Shown piece after piece: positions 3,970 to 63,218 of a DNA stretch of 64,000 nt (the stretch's first letter is position 1; every line of letters begins with the position of its first letter). The DNA comes from Candidatus Omnitrophota bacterium. GTDB taxonomy: Bacteria > Omnitrophota > Gorgyraeia > Gygaellales > Profunditerraquicolaceae. The stretch covers positions 539-64,538 of the forward strand of contig JALOCE010000001.1 in the NCBI GenBank assembly GCA_023227925.1. Direction: 5' to 3'. A model generated the notes under the pieces. It was not told where the DNA came from. It did no database searches and saw only the letters and a list, made by a program, of their open reading frames with translations. A program made the position numbers and the translations under genes.

Positions 3970-5463
3970 ATGGATATTCTTCTTATTTCCCCGGACTATA
4001 ATAATAAATTAAGCAACTTTCCCTGGGGTGTATTATCCCTAGCCAGTTATTTGTCTAAAGTTAAGAATTACAAAGTCGTGCTTTTAGACGCCAGCGTTTA
4101 TTCCGAGCCTGATTTCTACCGCAGATTAGAAGAATCCTGTAAGGGGATTAGCCTTGTTGGGGTAAGCCTTATGTCTACGGATACATATTTTGGCAAGAAA
4201 GTTATTGACCGCATCAAAGAGATCGATCCTGAGATAAAAATAATCGTCGGAGGGCCGCATGCCAGGCTCCAGCCGGTATCTACCTGCGCGTATAAGAATA
4301 TTGATTTTGTCGCTTACGCTGATGGAGAGCATACCCTTGAATCCCTCTTTGAAAAAATAAAATCGAAAGATACTGATTACAGTCAAGTGCCCGGGCTTGT
4401 TTATAAAGAGGGAGGTCTGATTAAACGCACGCCTATCTCCAGTTCTCCTGATTTTTACGACATTAACTATGAACTTCTTCCCGAAAGGACAATAAAAGGG
4501 TTTGCAAGGTATATCCAGGTTTTAACCGGGAGAGGATGTAATTTTAAATGCACATTTTGTTTTAATTCCGTCTGTGGGCAGAAATGGCGGGGAAGGCCCA
4601 TGAAGGATGTTGTACGGGAATTAGAGGGTATTGTTGCTGAATATCATCCGTCGATAGTATATTTCAGGGACGACAATTTTTTTCAATCAAAAGAAAGGAT
4701 TTTCGAGTTTATAGAATTATATAAGCATAAAAAATTCACTTTTCAGTGGCGGGCGAGTTGCCGGGTGAATTACTTCAATGAAGGTTATATCACTCCTCAT
4801 GTAATAAAAGAGCTGGAAGCGATTAATTGCCAGGTGCTTAAGTTTGGCCTGGAGAGTGGTTCGCAAAGGATGCTTGATTACCTGAAAAAAGGAATAAATC
4901 TGGAAAAGGTAAAAGAATTGATACTGGTTTTAAGTAAGAGTAAAATAATCAAACCCGAATATTCGCTTATGATAGGGATGCCGAAGGAAACTACCCGGGA
5001 TTATATGGATACCCTTCGGCTCGTAGGTTTTATAAGAAAACATGACCCTCGCGCTGCGATCATCGGCCCTCAGTATTTCCGGGTTTACCCGGGAGGAGAG
5101 CTTTACGAAGAAATAAAAAAGATCTATGGTTACTTTGAGCCGGATTCTTTCGAGGGATGGGCAGAGAAAAGCTCTGACGCTAAGAACAAGTTATTAGGCC
5201 TGGGGCAAGATTTACGTTATCCGTGGGTGCCGGGTAAGTACTTATTTTTGGCCCAAAATGTTTGGCAGCTTGTGCTTTTTAGCCGTCAGGACGTCAAAAG
5301 ATACCTTAGCCTAAAGCTAATGGTGCAAATGCCTTTTATCCTGCTTGCCAAATTAAGGGTAAATTTATGCTGGTATAGCTTCCTCATTGATTTGAGGTTT
5401 GCCGTCTTGCTTAAAGATATAAAGAAACGCCTTCTCACAGTAGGCCATAATGAGATTAATTGA
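3970..5463 (+). CDS. B12-binding (class B) radical SAM protein
   Basis: The N-terminal domain has a cobalamin-binding-like layout (LISPDY...VVLLDAS...IIVGGPHARL). Radical SAM CxxxCxxC motif: LTGRGCNFKCTFCFN. The C-terminus has a hydrophobic tail. Confidence 0.7.
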   Translation: MDILLISPDYNNKLSNFPWGVLSLASYLSKVKNYKVVLLDASVYSEPDFYRRLEESCKGISLVGVSLMSTDTYFGKKVIDRIKEIDPEIKIIVGGPHARLQPVSTCAYKNIDFVAYADGEHTLESLFEKIKSKDTDYSQVPGLVYKEGGLIKRTPISSSPDFYDINYELLPERTIKGFARYIQVLTGRGCNFKCTFCFNSVCGQKWRGRPMKDVVRELEGIVAEYHPSIVYFRDDNFFQSKERIFEFIELYKHKKFTFQWRASCRVNYFNEGYITPHVIKELEAINCQVLKFGLESGSQRMLDYLKKGINLEKVKELILVLSKSKIIKPEYSLMIGMPKETTRDYMDTLRLVGFIRKHDPRAAIIGPQYFRVYPGGELYEEIKKIYGYFEPDSFEGWAEKSSDAKNKLLGLGQDLRYPWVPGKYLFLAQNVWQLVLFSRQDVKRYLSLKLMVQMPFILLAKLRVNLCWYSFLIDLRFAVLLKDIKKRLLTVGHNEIN

Positions 5464-6508
5464 TAAGGAAATATTAGCTAGCCTTTGCTTAAGAAAGAAG
5501 GATCTCCCTTTTCCGGAAGAGCTTATCTTTGAGCCAACCTCCCGCTGTAACTTTAGATGTAAAATGTGTTTTTATGACAGTGAATACTTTAAAATTCAAG
5601 ATAAGGAGATGAGCCTTTCTGAGATTGAAATTTGTATTTCTAATCTTCCCAAAACAATAAAGCGGGTGCTTTTGATAGGCGGAGAGCCCCTACTTAGGAA
5701 AGATATTGTTGATATTGTACGTTTATTTTCACAGAAAAAGATAAAAGTCGCCATTGTTACAAATGGATATTTGTTGACACCTGTTTTGACTGACGAGCTT
5801 AATAAAATAGGAAATATCGATAAAATAGCAATTTCACTCGATGGCCCTCCCGAAATTAATAATAAAATCAGAGGAGTCAAAGATGCTTTTGAGCGTTCTT
5901 ACGCCAACCTAAAGTACGCAGCTGATTATTTCAATACAGAAGTAGTATCTGTGCTTCAAGATGACAATGAAGCAGCATTGCACAGGTTGCTTCCTTATTT
6001 AAAAGAAATTCCTAATGTAGTTTTTATTGTTGAAATTATGCGTAAATATACCCGTCAACTAATCGACGATACGGCAAAGATCCTCCATATGCGCCCAGAA
6101 AATATACATTTACAAGCGTCAGATATTGCTCTTGATAACCGTTCGGTATCGAATATTCTATCTACCTTATCTAACATTAAGCGCGATGCGATTCATATGC
6201 AATTGAAATTACGTACAATTCCAGAAAATGCTTTTGAACGAATACCAAATTTACTGGGAAAGAATGAGAACCTTAATTATCCGCAAATTTGTGGCAGGCT
6301 TCCAAAGGTTAGGTTGGATAGCGTAGGAAATATAATTCAATGTTATGCTATACGTAAACCATTGGGTTCGCTTTTGGAGAAAAAATTAGAAGAAATATGG
6401 AATAGCGAAGATCTTAAAAATTTCCGTAAAGAAATGGTAGAAAAAAACCTTTTTCCGGTTTGTTCGCTTTGTTTTGCAGTAAAAAACCTGGATATTAAAA
6501 AAAAATAG
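5450..6508 (+). CDS. Radical SAM protein with C-terminal SPASM/twitch-like Cys motifs
   Basis: Radical SAM motif: EPTSRCNFRCKMCFY. C-terminal Cys-rich motifs: ICGRLPKVRLDSVGNIIQCYA and FPVCSLCF. Its start overlaps the end of the upstream gene. Confidence 0.7.
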   Translation: MRLIDKEILASLCLRKKDLPFPEELIFEPTSRCNFRCKMCFYDSEYFKIQDKEMSLSEIEICISNLPKTIKRVLLIGGEPLLRKDIVDIVRLFSQKKIKVAIVTNGYLLTPVLTDELNKIGNIDKIAISLDGPPEINNKIRGVKDAFERSYANLKYAADYFNTEVVSVLQDDNEAALHRLLPYLKEIPNVVFIVEIMRKYTRQLIDDTAKILHMRPENIHLQASDIALDNRSVSNILSTLSNIKRDAIHMQLKLRTIPENAFERIPNLLGKNENLNYPQICGRLPKVRLDSVGNIIQCYAIRKPLGSLLEKKLEEIWNSEDLKNFRKEMVEKNLFPVCSLCFAVKNLDIKKK

Positions 6509-6573
6509 ATAAGCAAATATGGAATAGGGCTTGTTTTTTAAGCTAAAGGGCGGTATTAAACCACTCTTTTTCC

Positions 6574-6602
6574 TTGACTTTTTAAAGGGCATTCCCTATA
6601 AT
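6574..6602 (+). promoter_or_regulatory. Consensus sigma70-type promoter (TTGACT, 17-nt spacer, TATAAT) 8 nt upstream of the ATG at 6611
   Basis: The -35 box TTGACT is at 6574-6579 and the -10 box TATAAT at 6597-6602, with an exact 17-nt spacer. The predicted transcription start lies about 1-2 nt before the start codon, implying a leaderless or near-leaderless mRNA. Confidence 0.5.
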
Positions 6603-6610
6603 ATTGTTCA

Positions 6611-8515
6611 ATGAATGAACATATTTCCAGGGAAGATATCTTTAATATTCTCCGTACGTTAGCCACAAATAATAATCCTACCCAGAGAGAGCTATCTACT
6701 CATTTAGGCTTCTCCTTAGGCAAGACTAATTACCTGATCAAAGAGCTGGCCAAAAAAGGCCTGGTAAAGACACAGGCTTTTAGCCATAAAGATAATAAGC
6801 TCAAGAGGATTTCGTATGTTTTGACCCCTCGGGGATTTAAAGAAAAGGCCGGGCTTACTTTACATTTTTTAGAGAAGAAAGAGATTGAATATAATGAACT
6901 TAGGAATGAATGGGAGCATATCAGGAGTTCTCGGCCAAAGGCGGACTTTAATAAAAAAAATCATACTGATATAAACTTCAGGAACTTTTCAGAGGTTATA
7001 GAGTTTAATGCCAGCCACTATCCGCAGAAGTTATTCTGTGCCGATCATTCGACCGATAGGAGCATAACCTATGCGGAATTCAATAGTTATGTGAATCGGT
7101 GTTGTAATTTTCTGAAAGATATGTCTGTAGGCGAGGGTGATATTGTTTCGGTCTGTATAAAAAATGGCATAGCTTTTATGATTATCTATTTCGCCAGTAT
7201 GCGGCTTGGCGCCTCGGTTAATCCGCTTCCTGCCTCTTTATCGTATCAGGAGATTAAAAAGAACATGGAGTTTTTGCCTGTTAAACTGCTATTCGCAGAG
7301 GATAGATTCAAAGGCAATGATTTCACTGGCAAGGGCAGCGTCTTTTTTATGGATTATAAGCATGATTGTTTTTTTGACGCTATATCAAAATACCCTCCGA
7401 GTTATAAATCTATTATAAATGAAGATAGTATCGCCTGTTATTATTACACTTCCGGTACAACCAGCAATCCTAAGTGTATTATGTACACACATAAAAATAT
7501 GGTTTCTCTTGTCAGGTCTATGACTAAGTCTTTTCATTATACTTTGGGCGATATCCACTTAGGGTTTTTGCCGTTAGGCCATACAGCGATTACAAATTAT
7601 CAACTGCTCCCCGCAGTGTATAATGCCAGCACGCTCTTGCTCTATGAAAATTTTATGAAGCTGCGGGCTGATTTTTGGAAGATCGTCCGGGATAATAGCG
7701 TTACTTATGTAGAAGTAGTACCAAGTGTATTATTCATGATGCTAAATACGCCTTATCAAGATGCTGATGTTGCCGGAAATACCACCTTGAAATATATAGG
7801 TTGTGGTTCTGCTCCATTGGCAGTAGATATACAAAAACAAGCCCGGGAAAAATTTGGTATTCCCGTTGCCAACTTGTATGGCCTTTCCGAGACAGGGCCG
7901 ACGCATTTCGATGACCCGTTCAGGGATGGCTGGCGGCCTGGTAGTGTCGGTAAACCCATAGACGCATGCGAATGCAGGATTTTCAGGGAGGATAAAACCG
8001 AGGCCGATATCGGCGAAGTCGGGGAGATCGCGGTTAAAGGCGACAATGTCTTTAGAGGTTATTACAAAAACGACGCAGCCTATCAGCAAGTAATGCATAA
8101 TGGGTACTTTTTGACCGGGGATTTAGGCTATAAAGATGAAGACGGCTACTTTTATTTTGCCGACCGTAAAAAAGACTTGATTATCAAGGGGGGGGTTAAT
8201 ATTGTTCCGGCTGAAGTTGAGGAGGTCCTCTACCAGCTCCAGGAAGTTCAGATCGCCGCAGTAGTAGGCATTGAGGATGTCATTTACGGGGAAGATGTAG
8301 TTGCCTTTGTAAAATTAAAAGATAGTTTCATTATCGGAGAAGACAAAATCAAGGTTTTTTGCGCAGAAAACCTGCAGGGTATTAAGTGCCCGAAAGAAAT
8401 CTATATCATAGGCGATATGCCGCTAGGGCCATCCGGTAAGATCCTTAAGAAAGAGCTCAAGAAAAGATATGCCGAAAATTACTATGGAAGAAAGCAAGCT
8501 GGACAATTACCTTAG
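6611..8515 (+). CDS. Fusion protein: N-terminal MarR_EPS-like winged-helix domain plus AMP-dependent acyl ligase
   Basis: The first roughly 110 aa (QRELSTHLGFSLGKTNYLIKELAKKGLVKTQAFSHKDNKLKRISYVLTPRGFKEKAGLTLHFL) match the EPS-associated MarR family pattern. The rest has the adenylate-forming motif YYTSGTTSNPKC and a C-terminal TGDLGYKDEDGYFYFADRKKDLIIKGGVNI. Confidence 0.75.
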   Translation: MNEHISREDIFNILRTLATNNNPTQRELSTHLGFSLGKTNYLIKELAKKGLVKTQAFSHKDNKLKRISYVLTPRGFKEKAGLTLHFLEKKEIEYNELRNEWEHIRSSRPKADFNKKNHTDINFRNFSEVIEFNASHYPQKLFCADHSTDRSITYAEFNSYVNRCCNFLKDMSVGEGDIVSVCIKNGIAFMIIYFASMRLGASVNPLPASLSYQEIKKNMEFLPVKLLFAEDRFKGNDFTGKGSVFFMDYKHDCFFDAISKYPPSYKSIINEDSIACYYYTSGTTSNPKCIMYTHKNMVSLVRSMTKSFHYTLGDIHLGFLPLGHTAITNYQLLPAVYNASTLLLYENFMKLRADFWKIVRDNSVTYVEVVPSVLFMMLNTPYQDADVAGNTTLKYIGCGSAPLAVDIQKQAREKFGIPVANLYGLSETGPTHFDDPFRDGWRPGSVGKPIDACECRIFREDKTEADIGEVGEIAVKGDNVFRGYYKNDAAYQQVMHNGYFLTGDLGYKDEDGYFYFADRKKDLIIKGGVNIVPAEVEEVLYQLQEVQIAAVVGIEDVIYGEDVVAFVKLKDSFIIGEDKIKVFCAENLQGIKCPKEIYIIGDMPLGPSGKILKKELKKRYAENYYGRKQAGQLP

Positions 8516-9278
8516 TCTTGCCAAGAAGGCAGTAACTAAAGTCGGCGAGATTATTGAGGCAGAAAAAAGAAAAGGTTACCGGGTGATCCGGAAAGAAAAA
8601 AATGAACTCGTGACCGAGCTTGATGTATTGGCGCAAGCCCGGTTAATCGATCTTTTGAAAGAAGAGGCCGAATGCCGGACATTTATTGCCGAAGAAAAAC
8701 GGATATTAGATTTACCGGAGAACGATTTTTGGGTTATTGACCCCATAGATGGGACACATAATTTTATTGCGGGATTACCGTTTTATAGCGTTAGCCTTGC
8801 ATATTTTCATAAGGGGATACTGATGCTCTCCGCCGTATATTTTCCGGAATCCAGGGATTTATATTATGCGCAGAAAGGCAAGGGCGCTTTTTGTAATAAC
8901 GCGCTGATCCGGATTTCTTCAAATAAAGATTTAGCAAAAGGCATTGTTGCCTATGATAATCAGTTTTATCTTACCAAAAACAGCCTTGCTAATTTTATCG
9001 AAATTCAAAAGAGCGTGTTTACTACCAGAATCCTGGGCGTGGCTTCGCGCGATGCATGTTTCGTGGCTGAGGGAGTTTTGGATGCAAGGATCTGGAATTC
9101 TACAAAACTCTGCGATATTGCTGCGGGTAGTTTGATCGTGGAGGAAGCCGGTGGAAGGGTGAGTGATTTTTCTGGAAAGCCGTTAGATTTTCATTCAGTA
9201 AAAGACGTAATCGCCTCTAGCGGAAAATTTCACGGCGATTTAATAAAAATTTTAAATCATGAAGATAATAATGACTGA
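8469..9278 (+). CDS. Inositol monophosphatase / CysQ-family phosphatase
   Basis: Motif WVIDPIDGTHNF plus the rest of the IMPase fold signature. The true start may be the ATG at 8484. The ORF overlaps the 3' end of the ligase gene. Confidence 0.75.
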   Translation: MPKITMEESKLDNYLSLAKKAVTKVGEIIEAEKRKGYRVIRKEKNELVTELDVLAQARLIDLLKEEAECRTFIAEEKRILDLPENDFWVIDPIDGTHNFIAGLPFYSVSLAYFHKGILMLSAVYFPESRDLYYAQKGKGAFCNNALIRISSNKDLAKGIVAYDNQFYLTKNSLANFIEIQKSVFTTRILGVASRDACFVAEGVLDARIWNSTKLCDIAAGSLIVEEAGGRVSDFSGKPLDFHSVKDVIASSGKFHGDLIKILNHEDNND

Positions 9279-10308
9279 CAAGAGACCGATCATAGGCATA
9301 ACTATCGGTGAGCCTGCCGGTATAGGCAGTGAGATTGCGGTAAAGTTGCTTAGTGACCCGGAAGTCTATAAGATAGGGAGGCCGATAATCATCGGCTCGG
9401 AGTTTTTAATCAAAGAAGGAATGCGCATTGCCCAAGTAAATAAAAAAGCCTATGCGATAAAAGATGAAGAGATTGATAAGGTCGAATACTCCGAAGAAGA
9501 AATAAAATATATCGATTGTAAGAATATCCGGGAAGGTGATTTTGATTACGGAAAGATCTCTGCTAAAGCTGGAAGGGCTGCCGGTGAGTATATTAAAAAA
9601 GCAGTGCAATTGGCTTTAGAGAATAAGATCAATGCGATTGTCACTTGTCCTATTCATAAGGAATCCTTTACCCTGGGAGGCTGGGGAAAACGCTATGCCG
9701 GGCATACAGAGATGATCTCGGATTTAACCGGGACTAAGAAATACGCAATGGTGTTAGCCTGTGATAAGCTGCGCGTCATTCATGTTACCACACATGTTTC
9801 TTTAAAGAAATCTATCGAAGATTGTAAGAAAGGAAGGATTTTAGATGTGATCCAGCTTGGCCATAATGCCTGCAGAAAGCTTGGTATCCAGAAGCCCAGG
9901 ATCGGTGTTGCGGGTTTAAATCCTCATGCCGGTGACGGGGGGATCTTTGGCGATGAAGAGATAAAAGAGATTATGCCGGCGATTAAAGAAGCCCAAGATC
10001 TGGGTTTTGATGTTTCCGGCCCGATTTCTGCTGATACTATTTTCTGTAAGGCCAAGGGCGGCATGTTTGATATAGTAATTGCTATGAATCATGACCAGGG
10101 CCACATCCCGTTGAAATACGCAGGTTTTCTTTATAATGACCAGGCTAAATCCTGGGGGATCCGGGGAGTAAATATTACGGTAGGGCTACCGATAATCCGG
10201 GTCTCTGTTGATCATGGCACGGCCTTTGGTAAAGCAGGGAAAGGGACCGCAGATTATACCAGTTTAAAAGATGCTTATAGGTATGCCGTGGAGATGGCCA
10301 GCAATTAG
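9259..10308 (+). CDS. PdxA-family NAD-dependent 4-hydroxy-acid phosphate dehydrogenase (4-hydroxythreonine-4-phosphate dehydrogenase-like)
   Basis: Motifs: GITIGEPAGIGSEI, GHTEMISDLTG, GLNPHAGDGG, MNHDQGHIPLK. An alternative start at 9271 overlaps the upstream stop codon. Confidence 0.8.
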   Translation: MKIIMTDKRPIIGITIGEPAGIGSEIAVKLLSDPEVYKIGRPIIIGSEFLIKEGMRIAQVNKKAYAIKDEEIDKVEYSEEEIKYIDCKNIREGDFDYGKISAKAGRAAGEYIKKAVQLALENKINAIVTCPIHKESFTLGGWGKRYAGHTEMISDLTGTKKYAMVLACDKLRVIHVTTHVSLKKSIEDCKKGRILDVIQLGHNACRKLGIQKPRIGVAGLNPHAGDGGIFGDEEIKEIMPAIKEAQDLGFDVSGPISADTIFCKAKGGMFDIVIAMNHDQGHIPLKYAGFLYNDQAKSWGIRGVNITVGLPIIRVSVDHGTAFGKAGKGTADYTSLKDAYRYAVEMASN

Positions 10309-10316: not shown

Positions 10317-10562
10317 ATGGAAGAATTAAACAACATTATCAGCCAGGTGTTCGGGATCAAGCAAGACCAGATAAAGGATGAATATGGCCCCAATAATATT
10401 CCTCGTTGGGATTCATTATCGCAGCTTGCTTTGATTTCGGCAATCGAAACTCATTATAAAGTCACGCTGGAGATTGAAGAAATATTTCAGATAATGACCA
10501 TAGGAGATGTCCGTTCTGTCCTGGCAAAGAAATTAAATCAAAATAAGGAAAGTTTAAAATGA
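10317..10562 (+). CDS. Acyl carrier protein
   Basis: The product is 81 aa with a DSLSQLALISAIE phosphopantetheine-attachment motif. Its length and acidity are typical of an ACP. Confidence 0.75.
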   Translation: MEELNNIISQVFGIKQDQIKDEYGPNNIPRWDSLSQLALISAIETHYKVTLEIEEIFQIMTIGDVRSVLAKKLNQNKESLK

Positions 10563-37997: not shown

Positions 37998-38018
37998 AAA
38001 TAATAGGCTATAGTTACC

Positions 38019-39959: not shown

Positions 39960-39979
39960 TTTTAATCCAGGAGGAGTTA

Positions 39980-47680: not shown

Positions 47681-47702
47681 AAAATATAATTATGGAGAAA
47701 AA

Positions 47703-56604: not shown

Positions 56605-58506
56605 ATGAATTACGTCCAGTTTGGGCTATTCATCTTTATTTTCTTTTCTATTCTTTTTTGTGGCATAGCGATTTACAGATTATTGGCAGGCAATAATTCC
56701 AGTTTAAATAGGGGCATTTATCTGGGCGAGACCTTACTTTTGGGCTCGATATTGCTTGTAGGGGAATTTTTGGCATTATCTTTATTTTCGCTATATAAAT
56801 TACCGTTCTTAGCGGCGATAGTAGCTTTAAATTATTTACTTTTCTTCAATAAGGATGTAAAGGGCGGTTTTGTGTCGCTATTCAAGCATCCGCATTTTGA
56901 TTTATTTAACACTGTATTTATTCTATTGATATCGGTACTGATTTTCAGGAATATGTATTTCCTTGTTGATGTTGATTCGGCTTCAACTTATCTTTTTACC
57001 CAGAAAGTATGGTTATTAAAAGGAACGAGTATTATCGGCAGCAATGCCATTGATATGAGGATATTCGCGCCTCAATTTGATACTATTTTTTATAGCTTGG
57101 GCCTGGTGTTTACAAATTTTGAAATTTTATTTCCGCAACTTATAAATATTTTTTGGAAGATAATCGTTCTTTTATTGGTTTACGGGTATACGAGTTACCG
57201 TTTTAACGGGCTCTGCGGTTTAGGCGCCACTATGTTAGTTCTATTTGATATGCATTTTTTCTTTTCAGGCGCAAATCAGTGGGTAATGCTTAACTGTGCC
57301 CTGGTGGCATTTATCTTTGCTGCCGCTTATAATTTTTGGGAAGCAAGGAGAAGCAATGATATTTTTCGTTTTGCTTTAGCCCTGATCTTTTTGGCGCAGC
57401 TGCCGGCGAATAAATATCAGATGGCCTATATATTCATATTCTTCTTAGGGGCAGGGGTCCTGATCCAGCCGCAACCCCTGGAGAAGATAAAAGAAGTCCT
57501 TACTTCAAAAAAATTAGCCCTCGGTATAGCGGGTAGTATTTTTTGCGCCTGCCTCTGGTATGTTAAAAATTGGATAGCTGTCGGCTTGCCTACATTCCCG
57601 ATATTCGCAGGCAATCTGAATGTTGGAGGCTGGACGCCGGAGCAATCCGATATTTTTATTAAATTTTTTACCGGTATAAGCCCTATGCTTTTTTTCAAGT
57701 ATATGACTTATCTTTTTATTTGGCCAGGCATAGTTTCGTCAAAAATTGTGATCATTTTTATATCCTTACTCCCTATAGTATTACTATTATTCCTTAATAG
57801 TGCGAAAAAAGATAAAGAGCATTTAATGGAATTATCATTCTGGTTAGGGATTGCGATATTAAGCGTAATGGGTATTTGTCTGGCCTGCCACCAGGATCCA
57901 CGTTACTATCGTTTCCCGATAGGTATTTTTTCTTTTGCTGCTATTTTTTCCATAGCGTTCATAATAGGGCAATTTTTTAAAGCAAACCGTAATCTGCTTA
58001 CGGGGATCATAGCCATTTGCATCGGCTTGTTAGGATACCCTATTATTTATAGCGAGGGAGGGCATTTTAGCCGCCCCACTTTTCAAGAAAACCTTGCAGT
58101 GCTTAGGGATCAGATCCATACAGACTACGCGATAAAGAAGCACTACCCTATAGCTTTTTCCGTTGCCATTGCTATGGAGAAGAATAAAAGGAAAACGGAA
58201 AACGCGGGATGGGGTTTAAGGGATAGTTTGAATTTCCCCACTTTTTATCTTCCCGTCCGGCCAATGGTATCATTGTGGCTTACTACGGTAATCAGATGGG
58301 ATTCATATGCGAACGAAACGTCGATCATCGAAGATTTGAAAAAAGCCGGCCTTGAGTGGATTATGGAATTAAGAGGTAACGATCTATTATTTCTGAGCCG
58401 GGAAGAATACGCCAAGGAAGCAGTTGCTTATAACCGTCGTCCCGAAAAGGTTTCTTACGATTACGGTTTCCCCAGGGAGCTGTCGCATATTAAATATGGA
58501 GATTAA
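56605..58506 (+). CDS. Polytopic membrane protein (about 14 or more TM helices), function unknown
   Basis: Strongly hydrophobic throughout with no soluble motif. Possibly a GT-C-like or polysaccharide polymerase/export component. Confidence 0.3.
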   Translation: MNYVQFGLFIFIFFSILFCGIAIYRLLAGNNSSLNRGIYLGETLLLGSILLVGEFLALSLFSLYKLPFLAAIVALNYLLFFNKDVKGGFVSLFKHPHFDLFNTVFILLISVLIFRNMYFLVDVDSASTYLFTQKVWLLKGTSIIGSNAIDMRIFAPQFDTIFYSLGLVFTNFEILFPQLINIFWKIIVLLLVYGYTSYRFNGLCGLGATMLVLFDMHFFFSGANQWVMLNCALVAFIFAAAYNFWEARRSNDIFRFALALIFLAQLPANKYQMAYIFIFFLGAGVLIQPQPLEKIKEVLTSKKLALGIAGSIFCACLWYVKNWIAVGLPTFPIFAGNLNVGGWTPEQSDIFIKFFTGISPMLFFKYMTYLFIWPGIVSSKIVIIFISLLPIVLLLFLNSAKKDKEHLMELSFWLGIAILSVMGICLACHQDPRYYRFPIGIFSFAAIFSIAFIIGQFFKANRNLLTGIIAICIGLLGYPIIYSEGGHFSRPTFQENLAVLRDQIHTDYAIKKHYPIAFSVAIAMEKNKRKTENAGWGLRDSLNFPTFYLPVRPMVSLWLTTVIRWDSYANETSIIEDLKKAGLEWIMELRGNDLLFLSREEYAKEAVAYNRRPEKVSYDYGFPRELSHIKYGD

Positions 58507-58522
58507 ATCACCATCAATAAAT

Positions 58523-59620
58523 ATGAGGGATAAAGAGCTAAAAAAATTCGATCTGTTCGGAGTTAATATCTCTGCGATAAACATGGAATATATCCTGGAG
58601 TCTGTAGAAAATTCAATTTTAAACAAAGATAGGATCTATATATCTACCTGCCCCGTAGGAACCGTGATAGAATGCCAGAAAGATGAACAGGTTTTAAAAA
58701 GCGTAAATTCTGCAGATTTAGTTACTCCTGACGGCATGCCGGTTGTCTGGCTCGGCAGATTAAAAGGACATAAGGATATAACCAGGGTTTACGGCCCTGA
58801 TCTTATGTGGGAAATCTGTGCAATTTCCGAAAATAAAGGTTATAGGAATTATTTTTATGGTTCGACTCCCGAGGTGCTTAGCGGATTGAGAAAAAGACTT
58901 TTAGTATGCCTCCCCGGTTTAAAAATAGCAGGTTATTTTTCTCCGCCCTTTTATCCCTTGACAGAGGAAGAGGATAAGAAGATCATTAATATGATAAACA
59001 ATTGCAAAGCTGATATATTATGGGTCGGCCTAGGTTCGCCAAAGCAGGACATTTGGATGCACGAACACAGGGATGCGATAGGCGCCCCGGTTATTATCGG
59101 TGTGGGTGCTGCCTTTGATTTTTTATCCGGCCTGAAAAAACAGGCACCGCGCTGGATGCAGCGTTCGGGGTTGGAATGGCTTTTTCGTTTGATCACTGAG
59201 CCTAAGAGATTATGGAAACGTTATCTTCTGGGAAACTCGCTGTTTATGATTTTAATTGTCAGGGGCCTGATAAGGAAGGTAAAGGAGGAGTTCATGAAAG
59301 ATAAAATAATATTACCCGCTTTTGTTATAACGCTTTTCTTTCTGATGATATTTATAATTGTCTATATGAAAAACCAGGCAGCCTATATGGACAATCTGGA
59401 TGAAAGGGTAAGATTCTTGATGGGTAAAATAACCTCAACTTCAGATTTTAAGAAAGAAAAATCAATGGTTAGTGAGGCTGATAAGGCAGAAAACAAGAGC
59501 CTTCCGCAACAACTGGCAATTATCAGGCAAGATCTTAGTGACCTTCAAGCCAAATATGCTGCTATGGCTGATTCGCAAGAAAAGGAAGGTGCTAAAAAGA
59601 AGAAGAAAAAAGGAAATTGA
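58523..59620 (+). CDS. WecB/TagA/CpsF-family (GT26) glycosyltransferase with unusual C-terminal TM plus coiled-coil plus poly-Lys extension
   Basis: VTPDGMPVVWL and ILWVGLGSPKQDIWM core motifs. The ATG at 58523 follows the upstream stop. An in-frame C-terminal tail of about 110 aa carries one TM helix (ILPAFVITLFFLMIFIIVY), a coiled-coil-like segment, and a KKKKKKGN end. Confidence 0.75.
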   Translation: MRDKELKKFDLFGVNISAINMEYILESVENSILNKDRIYISTCPVGTVIECQKDEQVLKSVNSADLVTPDGMPVVWLGRLKGHKDITRVYGPDLMWEICAISENKGYRNYFYGSTPEVLSGLRKRLLVCLPGLKIAGYFSPPFYPLTEEEDKKIINMINNCKADILWVGLGSPKQDIWMHEHRDAIGAPVIIGVGAAFDFLSGLKKQAPRWMQRSGLEWLFRLITEPKRLWKRYLLGNSLFMILIVRGLIRKVKEEFMKDKIILPAFVITLFFLMIFIIVYMKNQAAYMDNLDERVRFLMGKITSTSDFKKEKSMVSEADKAENKSLPQQLAIIRQDLSDLQAKYAAMADSQEKEGAKKKKKKGN

Positions 59621-59646: not shown

Positions 59647-59663
59647 TTTATCTAAATTTATAA

Positions 59664-60611
<948 letters not shown>

Positions 60612-60615
60612 ATAT

Positions 60616-62016
60616 ATGTATAGGGATAAAAGAAAGATATATGCATTATACCTCATCATTGATATCATCCTTATCGGGTTTTCATATTATCTCGCCTATT
60701 TTTTAAGAGACAACCTGCACTTTATCCCCATATCTATGGCTACGTTCCGGCAATATTCCTTAGCGTTTATTTTGTGGGGGGTCAGCCTTATCTTTTTCTT
60801 GAATAATTTCCATTTATATTATACGGACCGGTCTTTGACTATTCCCCAGGAGGCTTATCTTGTTTTTAAGGCTGTTTTTTATTCTGCGATCTTATCGGCA
60901 GTTATTATCTTCGGATTTAAGATAGAGTTCTTTTCGCGTATAATTTTCCTTTCAGTCAGCGTCTTATTATTCATAAATTTATCTTCTTGGCGCATACTTA
61001 AAAGGATTTTTATCCGATATACGATTATAAGGGGATATAATAATTTTAATGTTTTGATCATAGGCGCGGGAAGGAGCGGTAAAGAGTTAGCCGATGAAAT
61101 AAAAGACAACCCTTATCTGGGGCTTAAGATAGTAGGTTTTTTAGACGATTATAAAACTGATGCTATTAATGGTTATAGGGTTATAGGAAAAATCCAGGAT
61201 CTGGAGAAGATAGCCCAAAAAAAGTTTGTGGATGAAATATATATCACTATCCCTTCCGAACGTAAAGTCGTTTCTGAGATCCTGTCAAAAGCTAATCTGC
61301 TTGGTAAAACAGTAAGGGTTTTAGCGGATAATTTTGAAATACCGAGATATCAGGTAAAAATTAATTATCTCGGTTTTCTTCCTTTGGTAAGTTATTATGA
61401 GAAAGGCATACATGGGACCGATTCTTTGATCAAAAGGGCGTTGGATATGATTATAGCTACTACGGCTATGACAATACTCCTTCCTTTGCTTTTGATAATT
61501 TCTTTTCTTATCAAGCTTGATAGCCCCGGCCCTATGCTTTATGTTTCCAGGCGTGCCGGCAGGAAAGGAAGGATCTTTAATTTTTATAAATTCCGTTCCA
61601 TGTACAAAGATGCCGATAGGGAGAAGGAGACATTGCGCCATAAATCGGAAGTCAAAGGCCCGATATTTAAGATAAAGAACGATCACCGTATTACCCGCCT
61701 GGGAAAGTTCCTGAGAAGGTATAGCCTGGATGAATTGCCCCAGCTGATCAATGTATTAAAAGGAGATATGACGCTGGTGGGGCCCCGTCCTCTTCCCGTT
61801 GACGAAAGTGAGCAATGCCAGGAGTGGCAATTGCGCCGCCTGGATGTAAAACCCGGGATCGCCTGTATGGCGCAAGTCCGGGGAAGGAGCGATATAAGTT
61901 TCTATAAATGGATGAAATGGGATCTATGGTATATTGATAACTGGTCTTTAGGCCTGGATTTTAATATAATGTTCTGGATGGTGCCTGCGGTATTAAAAAG
62001 AAAAGGTGCTTATTAA
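60616..62016 (+). CDS. Polyprenyl-phosphate sugar-1-phosphate transferase (WbaP/EpsB-type initiating bacterial sugar transferase)
   Basis: N-terminal TM helices, a central Rossmann-like domain, and C-terminal catalytic domain motifs IFNFYKFRSM and TLVGPRPLPVDE. Confidence 0.85.
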   Translation: MYRDKRKIYALYLIIDIILIGFSYYLAYFLRDNLHFIPISMATFRQYSLAFILWGVSLIFFLNNFHLYYTDRSLTIPQEAYLVFKAVFYSAILSAVIIFGFKIEFFSRIIFLSVSVLLFINLSSWRILKRIFIRYTIIRGYNNFNVLIIGAGRSGKELADEIKDNPYLGLKIVGFLDDYKTDAINGYRVIGKIQDLEKIAQKKFVDEIYITIPSERKVVSEILSKANLLGKTVRVLADNFEIPRYQVKINYLGFLPLVSYYEKGIHGTDSLIKRALDMIIATTAMTILLPLLLIISFLIKLDSPGPMLYVSRRAGRKGRIFNFYKFRSMYKDADREKETLRHKSEVKGPIFKIKNDHRITRLGKFLRRYSLDELPQLINVLKGDMTLVGPRPLPVDESEQCQEWQLRRLDVKPGIACMAQVRGRSDISFYKWMKWDLWYIDNWSLGLDFNIMFWMVPAVLKRKGAY

Positions 62017-63218
62017 TGAAGGAAAAGTTGTTTAGGATATTTGATTATGGAAGCGAATACAGCCTTTATGGGATGATACTTTTTATGCCCATTTCCAATG
62101 CCGGTATTGAATCTTTTTTTGGGTTTGCTTTTTTGTTTTTCCTGCTTAAAAAAGCCCTTAAGCCGGATTTTGGATTCCTTAGATCCACGGCATGCCTTTT
62201 TCTTTTATTTTTCATATTTTTCTTAAGCCTGTCTTTGTTTAATAGCGGCCCTTATCTGCAAAAAAGTTTAAGTTCTTTATTTTTTAAATGGGCCGAATAC
62301 ATCCTTATTTTTGTTATTACGCAAGATACTTTACGTAGCGCAAAAAGAATCCGTAATTCTTTGATCATTCTATTGGTTATAGCAGCCGTGGTTGGTATCG
62401 ATGGGTTATTCCAGCGTTTCATTGGCGTGGATTTCCTGCGCCATAAAAAAATAATTTCCTTATGGGGGGAAACAATGTTGCATGGCATCGGCATAACAGG
62501 GCCATTCCAGCATTATAATTCTTTCGGCACCTATTTGATGTTTAATCTATCCTTACTGTTAGTTTTATTGATCTCAATAAAAGATAAAATCTATAAAATA
62601 TCTTTATTTATGCTGTTCGTTCTGCTGCAGGCGTGTTTTATCCTGACTTTTTCCCGGGGAAGTTGGCTGGGGTTTTTATGCGGCGTATTTTTATTACTGT
62701 TGCTATACCGCAAAGTAAACAAATTAGTCCTCATATTTACAATCTATATTATCCTGATTATTTTTTTCCCCGGCTCAAAAGGAAGAAGCATGCTTGTTGA
62801 TGCAGATAGATTTACTGTATGGAAGGGCGCTTTCGGAATGATCAAGGACCATCCTTTTCTGGGGATGGGCTTAGGCACCTTTATGGATTACTTTCAGGAA
62901 TATGTATCTAAAGATATGTACCTTAGATACACGCATAATTGTTATTTACAGATTTGGGCAGAAAGCGGCATATTCGCTCTTGTGAGTTTTATTTTATTTT
63001 GCGGGTCTGTGATGTATAAGGGGATAAAGGCTTTTAAAAATAATAATTCCAATTTTGTATTATTGGGTTTTATCTGCGCATTCTTTGGATTCCTTGTGCA
63101 AATTTTCTTTGACAGCCAGCTATACTCTTTACAATTATCTGCCCTTTTTTGGTTTATCGCAGGGTTTATAATGGCCTTGGCCAGATTACGGGAAAATGCG
63201 CCATTAATAACTAAATAA
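62016..63218 (+). CDS. O-antigen ligase-family (Wzy_C) membrane protein
   Basis: Multiple TM helices and the motif TFSRGSWLGFLCGVF typical of the O-antigen ligase domain, followed by a periplasmic loop. Confidence 0.65.
   Translation: MKEKLFRIFDYGSEYSLYGMILFMPISNAGIESFFGFAFLFFLLKKALKPDFGFLRSTACLFLLFFIFFLSLSLFNSGPYLQKSLSSLFFKWAEYILIFVITQDTLRSAKRIRNSLIILLVIAAVVGIDGLFQRFIGVDFLRHKKIISLWGETMLHGIGITGPFQHYNSFGTYLMFNLSLLLVLLISIKDKIYKISLFMLFVLLQACFILTFSRGSWLGFLCGVFLLLLLYRKVNKLVLIFTIYIILIIFFPGSKGRSMLVDADRFTVWKGAFGMIKDHPFLGMGLGTFMDYFQEYVSKDMYLRYTHNCYLQIWAESGIFALVSFILFCGSVMYKGIKAFKNNNSNFVLLGFICAFFGFLVQIFFDSQLYSLQLSALFWFIAGFIMALARLRENAPLITK

What the first reader, a model, noticed from the sequence alone, without database searches (positions are those of the whole stretch)
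3970..63218. Supercluster of about 55 co-directional genes for a hypermodified nonulosonic-acid glycan using cobalamin radical SAM chemistry
Nearly the whole window is one + strand array with overlapping stops and starts. It contains:
- a NulO core: NeuB-family synthase at 11233, NeuD-type acyltransferase at 10559, NeuA-type CMP-transferase at 19503, DegT aminotransferase at 13121
- an ACP-dependent acylation module (6611-10562)
- four class-B (B12-binding) radical SAM enzymes (3970, 14574, 16892, 54405) and two SPASM radical SAMs (1-722, 5450)
- at least 12 SAM methyltransferase domains, at least 12 glycosyltransferases, two Wzy_C proteins, an ABC exporter and an initiating phosphoglycosyl transferase.
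Radical SAM enzymes in carbohydrate pathways are known only as isolated cases, for example GenK/GenD1-type C-methylases and the BtrN-type SPASM dehydrogenase. Six of them together with a dozen methyltransferases in one surface-glycan locus suggests an extensively C-/O-/N-methylated and acylated glycan. I cannot map that chemistry to any described polysaccharide pathway.
Basis: partly seen in the sequence, partly recalled or inferred. Interest (0 to 1): 0.85.

Follow-up and report, generated by a model that had tools for sequence, protein, structure and literature searches.

The report
Radical-SAM-rich nonulosonic-acid glycan island
A 59-kb strain-specific island in an uncultured Omnitrophota bacterium encodes sialic-acid-like (nonulosonic acid) sugar synthesis plus a heavily methylated surface-glycan assembly line, and one of its radical SAM enzymes belongs to an uncharacterised family found next to such sugar genes in every adequately flanked locus examined, across anaerobic bacteria and archaea.

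Summary
Window 3970-63218 carries 51 tightly packed + strand genes, and Pfam confirms nearly every family call. That includes four B12-domain radical SAMs and a SPASM radical SAM, all with CxxxCxxC, plus an ACP. There are two NeuB synthases and two CMP-transferases, not one of each.

The host is an Omnitrophota MAG. A close relative (GAPDH 89% identical) has gap followed by one gene, then speE-like-pgk. The stated range is therefore a discrete 59-kb insertion, bracketed by terminator-like hairpins. An independent assembly confirms the left junction.

The B12-radical SAM at 14574 belongs to a 50-69% identical family found in 52 species-level genomes, from Patescibacteria and Planctomycetes to methanogens, DPANN and Asgard archaea. 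All 28 loci with at least 8 kb on both flanks contain a NeuB homologue (median distance 3 kb over the 37 NeuB-positive loci). No curated family and no paper I could search describes this link.

Unproven:
- that the island makes one glycan;
- that cobalamin is used (the best structural neighbour is AprD4, a sugar diol-dehydratase that I recall binds no cobalamin);
- that the chemistry is C-methylation;
- that the other three B12-radical SAMs act on nonulosonic acids.

Verdict: a real new variant of a known kind, of moderately high interest.

The parts
3923..3946 (+). Terminator-like hairpin after gap; left border of the island
   Evidence: 10-bp stem followed by a T-run. The hairpin is conserved after gap in relative L061, and the sequences diverge immediately after it.
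3970..5463 (+). B12-domain radical SAM, 497 aa, first island gene
   Evidence: PF02310 1.5e-14 and PF04055 8.8e-17. CNFKCTFC at residue 190. No NCBIfam cutoff reached. A 49% homologue lies in the NulO locus L054.
5450..6508 (+). Radical SAM with SPASM domain, 352 aa
   Evidence: PF04055 3.1e-23 and PF13186 3.6e-8. CNFRCKMC at residue 33.
6611..8515 (+). MarR/HTH_24 domain fused to a FadD-like acyl-AMP ligase
   Evidence: PF00501 4e-67 and PF13412 3.9e-8. Promoter-like 11/12 match at 6574-6602 just upstream.
8469..9278 (+). Inositol-monophosphatase-family phosphatase
   Evidence: PF00459 1.5e-49.
9259..10308 (+). PdxA-family NAD-dependent dehydrogenase/decarboxylase
   Evidence: PF04166 1.3e-96. 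TIGR00557 319.7 bits against a cutoff of 290.
10317..10562 (+). Acyl carrier protein, 81 aa
   Evidence: Called gene with a faint PP-binding hit. DSLSQL motif.
10559..11236 (+). NeuD/PglD-type hexapeptide N-acyltransferase
   Evidence: PF00132. TIGR03570 135.8 bits, below its cutoff of 160.8.
11233..12246 (+). Nonulosonic acid synthase 1 (NeuB/LegI type)
   Evidence: PF03102 2.2e-96. TIGR03569 451.9 bits, above its cutoff of 399.65.
12243..13124 (+). Xylose-isomerase-like TIM-barrel protein
   Evidence: PF01261 4.6e-19.
13121..14572 (+). CBS pair fused to a LegC-like aminotransferase
   Evidence: PF01041 6e-129 and PF00571. TIGR04181 386 bits, below its cutoff of 420.
14574..16010 (+). B12-domain radical SAM of the conserved NulO-cluster family
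16007..16891 (+). Class I SAM methyltransferase
   Evidence: PF13489 4e-22. Homologues in 11 of 52 NulO loci; immediately downstream of the radical SAM in six of them (L016, L037, L043, L045, L046, L053).
16892..18568 (+). B12-domain radical SAM, 558 aa, rare lineage
   Evidence: PF02310 2e-15 and PF04055. CPFCCTFC at residue 239. Only one relative above 50% identity in the metagenome scan.
18565..19518 (+). GFO/IDH/MocA oxidoreductase (PtmF-like position)
   Evidence: PF02894 and PF01408. Same GFO-CMP transferase-SDR order as in L004.
19503..20207 (+). CMP-nonulosonate synthetase 1
   Evidence: PF02348 6.9e-25. PseF model 141.5 bits, below its cutoff of 205.7.
20220..21569 (+). GT-B-fold protein: TagF-like transferase or divergent 2-epimerase
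21582..22406 (+). Short-chain dehydrogenase (PtmA-like position)
   Evidence: PF13561 1e-57.
22413..23759 (+). Paralogue of 20220 (59% identity)
23766..25100 (+). Protein of unknown family, 444 aa
   Evidence: No Pfam hit. Unrelated to the 20220 family (hhalign probability 0.5%).
25102..26058 (+). MptE-like (DUF115/Maf-like) protein, candidate NulO transferase
   Evidence: PF01973 35.4 bits against a cutoff of 34.6.
25994..27103 (+). SAM methyltransferase
   Evidence: PF08241 29.7 bits.
27122..27790 (+). CMP-sugar synthetase 2
   Evidence: PF02348 1.8e-7.
27809..30193 (+). FAD amine-oxidase/UGM-like domain fused to nonulosonic acid synthase 2
   Evidence: PF01593, PF13450, and PF03102 4.6e-84. 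NeuB model 361.7 bits, below its cutoff of 399.65. 42% identical to NeuB1.
30204..32093 (+). Fused TMD-NBD ABC exporter
   Evidence: PF00664 and PF00005. The same family occurs in 12 of 52 NulO loci.
32108..32920 (+). GT2 glycosyltransferase
   Evidence: PF00535.
33080..34444 (+). Hexapeptide O-acetyltransferase with a weak CmcI-like methyltransferase domain
   Evidence: PF00132; PF04989 below threshold. Vat/CatB-like.
34471..35589 (+). GT4 glycosyltransferase
   Evidence: PF00534 1.4e-21.
35583..36239 (+). SAM methyltransferase
   Evidence: PF08241 6.8e-15. Homologues in 13 NulO loci.
36224..37027 (+). Polysaccharide deacetylase
   Evidence: PF01522.
37005..38990 (+). Two tandem paralogues (62% identity) with sub-threshold GT1 similarity
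39000..40669 (+). Two SAM methyltransferases (39000-39959 and 39980-40669)
   Evidence: PF08241.
40697..41875 (+). GT4 glycosyltransferase
   Evidence: PF00534 1.7e-24.
41872..43756 (+). Two GT2 glycosyltransferases
   Evidence: PF00535 1.4e-35 and 9.7e-30.
43741..44544 (+). SAM methyltransferase
   Evidence: PF08241.
44549..45565 (+). GT2 glycosyltransferase
   Evidence: PF00535 5.6e-26.
45546..46805 (+). Methyltransferase with the Pfam 'C-methyltransferase C-terminal' architecture (Methyltransf_13/23/14)
   Evidence: PF08484 5.1e-50 and PF08421.
46829..48590 (+). FkbM-family methyltransferase and a class I methyltransferase
   Evidence: PF05050 and PF13489.
48587..49777 (+). GT4 glycosyltransferase
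   Evidence: PF00534 1.8e-31.
49784..51223 (+). Wzy_C polytopic membrane protein (ligase, polymerase or O-oligosaccharyltransferase family)
   Evidence: PF04932. 9 predicted TM segments.
51251..52948 (+). 11-TM membrane protein of no known family
52977..54404 (+). Methyltransferase-GT2 fusion
   Evidence: PF13489 and PF00535.
54405..56585 (+). B12-domain radical SAM fused to a class I methyltransferase domain, 726 aa
   Evidence: PF02310 6.8e-18, PF04055 9.6e-23 and PF08241. CAFKCSFC at residue 205. Best NCBIfam hit HpnJ, 149 bits against a cutoff of 578.
56605..58506 (+). 10-TM membrane protein with a soluble C-terminal part, no known family
58424..59620 (+). WecG/TagA-family glycosyltransferase (the gene caller starts it at about 58523)
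   Evidence: PF03808 2.7e-65..
59676..60611 (+). NAD-dependent sugar epimerase/dehydratase
   Evidence: PF01370 1.7e-51. Promoter-like 11/12 match at 59617-59644.
60616..62016 (+). Polyprenyl-phosphate phosphoglycosyl transferase (initiating enzyme)
   Evidence: PF02397 1.2e-63 and PF13727. 5 TM segments.
62016..63218 (+). Second Wzy_C membrane protein; last island gene
   Evidence: PF04932 2.5e-19. 9 TM segments.
63242..63262 (+). Terminator-like hairpin; right border of the island
   Evidence: 9-bp stem followed by a T-run. The speE-like gene that follows aligns with the relative L061.

Best explanation
Window 3970-63218 is a strain-specific 59-kb surface-glycan island of an Omnitrophota bacterium. 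It is inserted between gap and a speE-like/pgk block.

Proposed workflow (inferred unless marked shown):
1. 3970-10562 makes and activates an unusual small acid: B12-domain radical SAM, SPASM radical SAM, phosphatase, PdxA-type dehydrogenase, acyl-AMP ligase and ACP. The NeuD-type transferase at 10559 puts this acid on a sugar amine.
2. 10559-22406 is a legionaminic-acid-type pathway ending in a CMP-activated nonulosonic acid (NulO). The family membership of synthase, aminotransferase and CMP-transferase is shown.
3. Within that pathway, the radical SAM at 14574 modifies the NulO or its immediate precursor. Its dedicated link to NulO clusters is shown; its chemistry is not. My first choice is methylation of an unactivated carbon, followed by the adjacent class I methyltransferase. 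An AprD4-like dehydration is the main alternative.
4. A second synthase/CMP-transferase pair (27122-30193) supplies a second ulosonic acid.
5. Transfer candidates are the GT-B paralogues 20220/22413 and the Maf-like 25102.
6. A lipid-linked oligo- or polysaccharide is started by the PGT and WecG/TagA. About nine glycosyltransferases extend it and about eight methyltransferases, a deacetylase and an acetyltransferase decorate it. The ABC exporter and/or the unassigned polytopic membrane proteins move it across the membrane. A Wzy_C enzyme ligates it to lipid A-core or to protein.
For: Island status:
- Relative L061 shares the backbone: GalT-like genes 83% and 79% identical, GAPDH 89%. It runs gap-[283 aa]-speE-like-pgk-tpi-secG.
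- Relative L062 has different genes after gap.
- Hairpin terminators bracket the island, and the border sequences align with L061.
- Independent Logan contigs are 100% and 99.98% identical over 8.6 and 9.5 kb, and one spans the gap/island junction.
- GC content and GC skew are uniform across the window.

Taxon: every named PriA hit is Omnitrophota, at 56-61% identity.

Families.

Radical SAM-NulO link:
- 52 species-level loci carry 50-69% orthologues, from many bacterial and archaeal phyla.
- NeuB is present in 28 of 28 loci with at least 8 kb on both sides, and a CMP-transferase in 26 of 28. The median NeuB distance is 3 kb over the 37 NeuB-positive loci.
- The CMP-transferase is the most frequent assigned immediate neighbour.
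- Minimal DPANN clusters (L034, L040) carry only core pathway genes plus this radical SAM.
- Control: 0 of 24 loci found with a generic B12-radical SAM query contain NeuB.

Other:
- GT-B fold of 20220.
- Gene order GFO-CMP transferase-SDR matches the Leg-type cluster in L004.
Against: - No 4,6-dehydratase (LegB type) and no Pfam-recognisable hydrolysing 2-epimerase (LegG/NeuC) lie in the island. The sugar route into NeuB1 is therefore incomplete, unless 20220/22413 or backbone genes supply these steps.
- Nothing shows a single product. The duplicated synthases, CMP-transferases and Wzy_C proteins fit several glycoconjugates.
- No acceptor (flagellin, pilin, S-layer protein, lipid A-core) is identified in the window.
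- No radical SAM reaches any curated functional family cutoff.
- The best structural neighbour of 14574 is a dehydratase, not a methylase.
- The role of 3970-10308 in making an acyl group is inferred from family names only. The PdxA-family protein passes the housekeeping pdxA model.
Confidence: 0.7

Rival explanations
1. The island is a mosaic of two or three independent glycoconjugate pathways that accumulated at one variable hot spot, for example a NulO protein-glycosylation system plus an O-antigen-like methylated polysaccharide. It is not one pathway for one hypermodified glycan.
For: - Two NeuB (42% identical), two CMP-transferases, two Wzy_C, and both an ABC exporter and a PGT/WecG route.
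- Promoter-like sites and larger gaps at 6508-6611, 32920-33080 and 59620-59676.
- The site after gap carries different content in each relative.
- The flanking housekeeping genes share the strand, so co-directionality carries no information.
- Precedent for two unrelated glycans on one protein: the S-layer protein of Kuenenia.
Against: - No terminator-like hairpin was found in the two sub-regions scanned (2700-7000, 59000-64000) other than at the two borders.
- 21 of 54 junctions overlap.
- The same ABC exporter family recurs inside NulO clusters elsewhere, in 12 loci, which ties the two halves together.
Confidence: 0.45
2. The 14574-family enzyme, and possibly the other B12-domain radical SAMs, is not a cobalamin-dependent methylase. 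It would be an AprD4-like dehydratase or another radical isomerase, epimerase or oxidase. It would give a deoxy, keto or epimeric NulO, with the neighbouring SDR or class I methyltransferases completing the modification.
For: - Best NCBIfam hits are the non-methylases BchE and HpnJ.
- SDRs and class I methyltransferases are frequent neighbours.
Against: - The sequence match to AprD4 covers only the radical SAM core (residues 201-403). The N-terminal domain matches Pfam B12-binding (2.2e-10), and OxsB and TokK from about residue 21.
- The N-terminal domain is highly conserved across the family, including invariant G98, G101, G121, E124, E125 and T126.
- Legionaminic-type sugars offer no vicinal diol (established structure of Leg; from my own knowledge).
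Confidence: 0.35
3. Some of the radical SAM genes (3970/5450 at the island edge, 16892, the 54405 fusion) serve an unrelated pathway such as a lipid, cofactor or peptide modification, and merely sit in the island.
For: - None of them has orthologues with an informative context. The 16892 scan gave one 2-kb contig.
- Best family hits are to P-methylases, HpnJ and the RiPP enzyme ApyD, all far below cutoff.
- 3970/5450 sit before a promoter-like site and a 102-nt gap.
Against: - All lie inside the inserted segment and are flanked by sugar genes.
- 9 of 28 NulO loci elsewhere carry two or more B12-radical SAMs, and at least 10 carry SPASM radical SAMs.
- A 49% homologue of 3970 lies in a Planctomycetia NulO locus.
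- Generic B12-radical SAMs sit beside GT4, DegT and PGT genes in other metagenome contigs.
- No precursor peptide or lipid genes were seen.
Confidence: 0.2
4. The array is a chimeric assembly that joins unrelated regions.
For: It is a single MEGAHIT metagenome contig, and the island is absent from the closest relative.
Against: - Logan assembly of run SRR8542065 gives a 34.8-kb contig that starts in gap and continues into the island. The fetched 8,567-bp stretch is 100% identical to the window. Another 9.46-kb contig is 99.98% identical.
- Uniform GC (0.35-0.44) and positive GC skew throughout.
- Clean borders at conserved terminators.
Confidence: 0.02

Closest known systems
Legionaminic acid (CMP-Leg) biosynthesis cluster of Campylobacter type (legB, legC, legH, legG, legI, legF, ptmA, ptmE, ptmF)
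   Same: NeuB/LegI-type synthase (passes TIGR03569), LegC-like aminotransferase, NeuD/PglD-type N-acyltransferase, and the GFO oxidoreductase-CMP transferase-SDR order. A Planctomycetales locus (L004/L010) shows the complete canonical set with two B12-radical SAMs embedded in it.
   Different: - No LegB-type dehydratase, no recognisable LegG and no PtmE in the island.
- The CBS pair is fused to the aminotransferase.
- Two B12-domain radical SAMs, a methyltransferase and a TIM-barrel protein are intercalated.
- An ACP-dependent acyl branch lies upstream.
Radical SAM enzymes of aminoglycoside sugar tailoring: AprD4 (C3' deoxygenation), GenK/GenD1 (cobalamin-dependent C-methylation), BtrN/NeoN (SPASM/twitch dehydrogenase and epimerase)
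   Different: Sequence identity is only about 18-21%. The substrates there are pseudo-oligosaccharide antibiotics, not nucleotide-activated nine-carbon keto-acids. No curated family cutoff is met. The 14574 family is spread across bacteria and archaea inside primary surface-glycan loci.
S-layer O-glycan of the anammox planctomycete Kuenenia stuttgartiensis (methylated HexNAc core, dimethyl-deoxyhexose, novel NulO caps)
   Same: An anaerobic lineage that I take from memory to be PVC-related. A glycan with extensive methylation (PMC5088730), capped by undescribed NulO variants with oxonium ions 14 Da apart (bioRxiv 2020.12.03.409086). Its Leg-type cluster has a deacetylase and a formyltransferase (bioRxiv 10.64898/2026.04.20.719630). 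Those two gene types also recur in the 14574-family loci.
   Different: No radical SAM is mentioned for Kuenenia in those papers. No Brocadiales genome was among the 52 loci. The glycan of the Omnitrophota organism is unknown.
Campylobacter/Helicobacter/Aeromonas flagellin glycosylation islands with Maf transferases
   Same: Hypervariable islands that combine NulO synthesis, methyltransferases and DUF115/Maf-like proteins. C. fetus subsp. testudinum carries phase-variable SPASM-type radical SAM genes among SDR, methyltransferase and formyltransferase genes (PMC6321876); that this stretch is a flagellin glycosylation locus is my inference.
   Different: There are no flagellin genes in the window. 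The Maf-like protein is short (318 aa) and only marginally matches PF01973. The island also carries a full lipid-linked polysaccharide assembly set.

Membership tests
Class B (cobalamin-dependent) radical SAM enzymes | CxxxCxxC motif for the radical SAM [4Fe-4S] cluster | tested here: met
   3970 at C190, 14574 at C207, 16892 at C239, 54405 at C205.
Class B (cobalamin-dependent) radical SAM enzymes | N-terminal Rossmann-type B12-binding domain preceding the radical SAM barrel | tested here: met
   PF02310 is above its 32.1-bit cutoff in all four: 54.3, 40.9, 57.1 and 65.1 bits. The 14574 model aligns over 376-414 residues with MgmA, TsrM and CysS.
Class B (cobalamin-dependent) radical SAM enzymes | Actual cobalamin binding and methyl (or other) transfer through it | not testable with these tools
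   From my recall of the AprD4 structure paper, AprD4 (the best structural match) has the same domain layout but binds no cobalamin. Domain presence is therefore not proof.
Class B (cobalamin-dependent) radical SAM enzymes | Membership of a curated functional subfamily (BchE, HpnJ, PhpK, GenK-like, AprD4 and others) | tested here: not met
   Best scores are 125-173 bits against cutoffs of 481-750.
SPASM radical SAM enzymes | Radical SAM core plus a C-terminal SPASM auxiliary-cluster domain | tested here: met
   5450: PF04055 83 bits and PF13186 34 bits. 1-722: PF13186 50 bits. No functional subfamily cutoff is met.
Legionaminic-acid-type NulO pathway | NeuB/LegI-type condensing synthase | tested here: met
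   TIGR03569 451.9 bits, above 399.65, for 11233. The second synthase scores 361.7, below cutoff.
Legionaminic-acid-type NulO pathway | CMP-NulO synthetase | tested here: inconclusive
   PF02348 is met for 19503 and 27122. The PseF equivalog scores 141.5, below 205.7.
Legionaminic-acid-type NulO pathway | LegC aminotransferase and LegH/NeuD N-acetyltransferase | tested here: inconclusive
   TIGR04181 386, below 420. TIGR03570 135.8, below 160.8. The Pfam families are met.
Legionaminic-acid-type NulO pathway | NDP-HexNAc 4,6-dehydratase (LegB/PseB) | tested here: not met
   No Polysacc_synt_2-type dehydratase lies in 3970-63218. One lies in the conserved backbone upstream.
Legionaminic-acid-type NulO pathway | Hydrolysing 2-epimerase (LegG/NeuC) | tested here: inconclusive
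Maf-type flagellin NulO glycosylation island | Maf (DUF115/MptE-like) transferase | tested here: inconclusive
   25102: PF01973 35.4 bits against a cutoff of 34.6, covering only residues 160-230.
Maf-type flagellin NulO glycosylation island | Location among flagellin or flagellar genes | tested here: not met
   None in the window or in the 10-kb flanks read.
Wzy-dependent O-antigen / lipid-linked glycan assembly | Initiating phosphoglycosyl transferase and a Wzy_C-family ligase or polymerase | tested here: met
   PF02397 214 bits. PF04932 55 and 70 bits.
Wzy-dependent O-antigen / lipid-linked glycan assembly | Wzx flippase and Wzz chain-length regulator | tested here: not met
   No Pfam match. 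A fused ABC exporter and two unassigned 10-11-TM proteins are present instead.
Genomic island | Present/absent polymorphism at a conserved chromosomal site | tested here: met
   L061 and L062 compared with the window.
Genomic island | Mobility marks: integrase, tRNA target, flanking direct repeats, deviant composition | tested here: not met
   No integrase family. No flanking repeats. GC content is like that of the flanks. tRNA genes were not scanned for.

The most novel reading that the evidence does not exclude
The 14574-type enzyme is the founding member of a widespread, undescribed class of radical SAM enzymes that remodel the carbon skeleton of nonulosonic acids. Examples would be C-methylation of the C9 methyl or another unactivated carbon, giving C-branched or ten-carbon ulosonic acids. 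It would operate in anaerobic bacteria (Patescibacteria, Omnitrophota, Planctomycetes, Desulfobacterota) and archaea (methanogens, DPANN, Asgard). Such an enzyme could explain mass-spectrometric reports of +14 Da NulO series and of 'higher-carbon ulosonic acids' whose biosynthesis is unknown.
Probability: 0.35. Interest if true: 0.85.

Novelty: new variant of a known kind. Interest (0 to 1): 0.7.

Why it matters
Nonulosonic acids cap the surfaces of many microbes. They govern phage, host and immune recognition, and their known tailoring is limited to N-acyl, amidino and O-substituents made by conventional enzymes. A radical SAM enzyme that is conserved at 50-69% identity and confined to these clusters, across two domains of life, implies a common modification step that has never been characterised.

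It gives a concrete gene to test against recent unexplained observations: 14-Da NulO series on an anammox S-layer, and C10 ulosonic acid marker ions. It would extend radical SAM sugar chemistry from antibiotic pathways to primary cell-surface glycans.

The island also shows how much coding capacity an Omnitrophota cell devotes to a strain-variable surface coat: 59 kb with six radical SAM-type or related enzymes and about a dozen methyltransferases.

Tried and rejected
- Metagenome scan with 16892. Only one relative above 50% identity, on a 2-kb contig. The rest are generic 23-29% B12-radical SAMs, so there is no context evidence for this lineage. These loci served as a negative control: 0 of 24 have NeuB.
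- Context look-ups for P0242 and for the Wzy_C at 62016 were not on record.
- Rfam at gathering thresholds found no riboswitch or other RNA in the window.
- Repeat search found no direct or inverted repeats at the island borders, only the tandem paralogue pairs.
- hhalign of 23766 against the 20220 family showed they are unrelated. 23766, 51251 and 56605 remain unassigned.
- PDB sequence search for 20220 gave nothing. The fold search could not separate a TagF-like transferase from a 2-epimerase.
- Literature searches pairing 'radical SAM' with nonulosonic, pseudaminic, legionaminic, flagellin glycosylation or NeuB gave nothing on this association. A 2026 review of B12-radical SAM enzymes does not contain the words sugar, glycan, sialic or polysaccharide.
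- Cluster-member look-up to find a cultured host of the 14574 family returned no names. All 52 genome loci are MAGs.
- I considered a phosphonate-modified glycan, because 16892 best matches a P-methylase model. I rejected it: the score is far below cutoff and no PEP-mutase-type gene appeared in the Pfam results.
- I considered a link of the SPASM gene at 1-722 to the island. It is absent from both relatives, but gap and the GalT-like backbone genes separate it from the island. Its similarity to SPASM genes in NulO loci is only 20-26%.

Full report
**What is in the window.**
All ORFs of at least 100 aa that do not lie inside a larger ORF are on the + strand. 21 of 54 junctions overlap, and only six gaps exceed 40 nt. 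GC content is 0.35-0.44 and GC skew is positive throughout.
- B12-binding + Radical_SAM proteins lie at 3970, 14574, 16892 and 54405. The last is fused to a class I methyltransferase domain.
- Radical_SAM + SPASM proteins lie at 1-722 (cut at the 5' end; 309 aa in full) and at 5450.
- Every complete radical SAM carries CxxxCxxC.
- The four B12-domain proteins are only 23-27% identical to each other, so they are four lineages, not recent duplicates.
- There are two NeuB+SAF synthases. The one at 11233 passes the NCBIfam NeuB model (452 against 399.65 bits). The C-terminal part of the 794-aa fusion at 27809 scores below cutoff. There are also two CTP_transf_3 enzymes, at 19503 and 27122.
- An 81-aa ACP with a DSL motif lies at 10317-10562.
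- I count 11 methyltransferase domains above Pfam threshold plus one below it.
- I count nine glycosyltransferases above threshold (including WecG/TagA) and two below it. There are also a marginal Maf-like protein, a phosphoglycosyl transferase (PGT), two Wzy_C proteins, a fused ABC exporter, and two unassigned 10-11-TM proteins.

**Host and borders.**
The window is part of an 88.6-kb metagenome contig. The PriA encoded just upstream has only Omnitrophota among its named relatives, at 56-61% identity.

A close relative, L061, has GalT-like genes 83% and 79% identical and GAPDH 89% identical to the window. Its order is HAD-MGDG synthase-priA-fmt-galT-galT-gap-[one 283-aa gene]-speE-like-pgk-tpi-secG. 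A second relative has unrelated genes after gap.

The window has the same backbone, with 3970-63218 lying between gap and the speE-like gene. A 10-bp-stem terminator-like hairpin follows gap (3923-3946). It is conserved in the relative, and the sequences diverge immediately after it. A second hairpin follows the last island gene (63242-63262), after which the speE-like gene aligns again.

It has no integrase, no flanking repeats and no compositional deviation. The two GalT-like genes and gap are conserved backbone. The SPASM gene at 1-722 is a separate one-gene insertion.

Co-directionality extends into the housekeeping flanks, so it is not evidence for one operon. A chimeric assembly is very unlikely. 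An independent Logan assembly has a 34.8-kb contig that starts in gap and runs into the island; its fetched 8,567-bp stretch is 100% identical to the window. Another 9.46-kb contig is 99.98% identical.

**The generalisable result: a radical SAM family dedicated to nonulosonic acid (NulO) clusters.**
The protein at 14574 has thousands of homologues, and the best 120 are all 58-69% identical. Three contexts picked at random all lay inside NulO clusters: a Planctomycetales MAG, a Methanoregulaceae chromosome and a Methanoregula MAG.

A pattern scan of one genome per GTDB species returned 52 loci. They come from:
- Saccharibacteria and five other Patescibacteria lineages;
- Planctomycetes, Omnitrophota, Dehalococcoidia, Desulfobacterota/Syntrophorhabdus, Nitrospirae and Lentisphaera;
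- among archaea, Methanomicrobiales, Methanosarcinales, Thermoplasmatales, Woese-, Pace- and Iainarchaeota, and Asgard lineages.

All are MAGs. The named lineages are, as far as I know, anaerobes.

Using tblastn with the window's proteins, a NeuB homologue is present in 37 of the 52 loci. It is present in 28 of the 28 loci with at least 8 kb on both sides of the radical SAM. The median distance is 3 kb over the 37 NeuB-positive loci. A CMP-transferase is present in 26 of the 28. The loci without NeuB are short or truncated contigs.

As a control, none of 24 loci retrieved with a different, generic B12-radical SAM query contains NeuB.

Clustering of all ORFs in the 52 loci gives the next most common partners:
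- DegT aminotransferase, 4,6-dehydratase/epimerase and LegG-like 2-epimerase;
- the amidotransferase trio (GATase, HisF-like and a roughly 400-aa protein);
- hexapeptide transferase and SDR;
- two methyltransferase families that are also in the window (16007-like in 11 loci, 35583-like in 13);
- the same ABC exporter family (12 loci);
- a recurrent class III aminotransferase + glyoxalase-fold pair.

The CMP-transferase is the most frequent assigned immediate neighbour. Minimal clusters in DPANN archaea contain only core pathway genes plus this enzyme (L034, L040). I infer from this that the substrate is the NulO itself, its CMP derivative or its immediate hexose precursor, and not an exotic side chain. 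Nine of the 28 full loci carry two or more B12-domain radical SAMs, and at least ten carry SPASM radical SAMs. Radical-SAM-rich NulO clusters are therefore a recurring theme, and the window is an extreme case.

**What the enzyme does is not settled.**
No radical SAM of the window reaches any NCBIfam cutoff. The best hits are BchE, HpnJ, P-methylase and ApyD models at a quarter to a third of the required score.

AprD4 is an amino-sugar 1,2-diol dehydratase. I recall that its B12-like domain binds no cobalamin, so the domain alone does not prove cobalamin chemistry.

Several points favour a real cofactor domain:
- The AprD4 sequence match covers only the radical SAM core.
- The N-terminal domain matches Pfam B12-binding, and OxsB and TokK from about residue 21.
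- That domain is strongly conserved in the family.

I rank methylation of an unactivated carbon first, at about 45%. AprD4-like dehydration or another radical rearrangement comes second, at about 35%.

**Other parts of the island.**
- The island lacks a LegB-type dehydratase.
- 3970-10562 combines two radical SAMs, an HTH-fused acyl-AMP ligase, a phosphatase, a PdxA-family dehydrogenase and an ACP. It sits next to a NeuD-type transferase. An acyl-ACP-dependent N-acylation branch is a reasonable reading but is inferred from family names only.
- 30204-63218 reads as a lipid-linked glycan assembly line with heavy methylation.

**One product or several.**
Whether all this makes one product is open. 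The duplicated synthases, CMP-transferases and Wzy_C proteins, and internal promoter-like sites, fit two or three glycoconjugates equally well. Omnitrophota have LPS-core-type genes just upstream (GT9). Lipid A-core and proteins are therefore both possible acceptors.

**Comparison with what is known.**
The core resembles the legionaminic acid pathway. A Planctomycetales locus shows the complete canonical gene set with two B12-radical SAMs embedded in it.

The nearest described glycan analogue is the Kuenenia stuttgartiensis S-layer O-glycan. It is extensively methylated (PMC5088730) and capped with undescribed NulO variants whose oxonium ions differ by 14 Da (bioRxiv 2020.12.03.409086).

A 2026 preprint reports +14.01 Da CMP-NulOs in Kuenenia. 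It also reports CMP-activated ulosonic acids with a C10 marker fragment in Magnetospirillum gryphiswaldense, of unknown biosynthetic origin (bioRxiv 10.64898/2026.04.20.719630).

A NulO-dedicated class-B radical SAM is an obvious candidate for such chemistry. However, neither organism was among the 52 loci, so this is a hypothesis and not a finding.

I found no paper that connects radical SAM enzymes with NulO biosynthesis. A recent review of B12-radical SAM enzymes does not contain the words sugar, glycan, sialic or polysaccharide. The only hint is an annotation table that lists phase-variable SPASM-type radical SAM genes among SDR, methyltransferase and formyltransferase genes in Campylobacter fetus subsp. 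testudinum (PMC6321876). That this stretch is its flagellar glycosylation region is my inference.

**Verdict.**
The NulO-radical SAM connection is real and conserved for one of the six enzymes. The single-glycan, cobalamin and methylation claims remain inferences. It is a new variant of a known kind of system, a NulO-containing surface-glycan island. It contains an uncharacterised but widespread enzyme family that is directly testable.

Noticed in passing
window 27809-30193: An FAD amine-oxidase/UDP-galactopyranose-mutase-like domain (about 430 aa) is fused to a NeuB+SAF synthase. The synthase part falls below both the NeuB and the PseI curated cutoffs. I know of no described fusion of this kind.
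   Followed up: partly
window 6611-8515: A MarR/HTH_24 DNA-binding domain is fused to the N-terminus of a FadD-like acyl-AMP ligase. This suggests a ligase that also regulates transcription, or a sensor of its acid substrate.
   Followed up: no
window 13121-14572: A CBS domain pair is fused to the LegC-like aminotransferase. In the related loci read here, CBS sits on the nucleotidyltransferase instead (the PtmE-like f291 family; L019 5101-6210).
   Followed up: no
window 1-722 (full gene L003:9023-9952): This radical SAM/SPASM gene sits between fmt and the GalT-like genes and is absent at that position in both Omnitrophota relatives. It is a one-gene insertion separate from the main island.
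   Followed up: partly
window 771-2792 with L061 and L062: Two tandem GalT/HIT-like paralogues (49% identical to each other) are conserved immediately upstream of gap in all three Omnitrophota genomes examined. Their function is unknown.
   Followed up: no
proteins P0276, P0277, P0292, P0323: Remote homologues of the 14574 radical SAM include giant proteins of 1,800-2,600 aa, with up to six tandem B12-radical SAM-like stretches.
   Followed up: no
L014, L016, L021, L026, L029, L037, L056: A recurrent module stands next to the conserved radical SAM: CMP-transferase, class III aminotransferase, glyoxalase/VOC-fold protein, then a methyltransferase and SDR(s). It looks like a second, distinct NulO-tailoring cassette.
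   Followed up: partly
window 63300-64000 and L001:18876-21116: Directly after the island lies a 746-aa polytopic membrane protein with a spermine/spermidine-synthase domain. It is conserved next to pgk in the relative L061.
   Followed up: no
L065 and L068 (metagenome contigs): Unrelated B12-domain radical SAMs sit among GT4, DegT, epimerase and PGT genes that have no NeuB. Radical SAM enzymes may therefore be common in environmental polysaccharide loci beyond NulO clusters.
   Followed up: no
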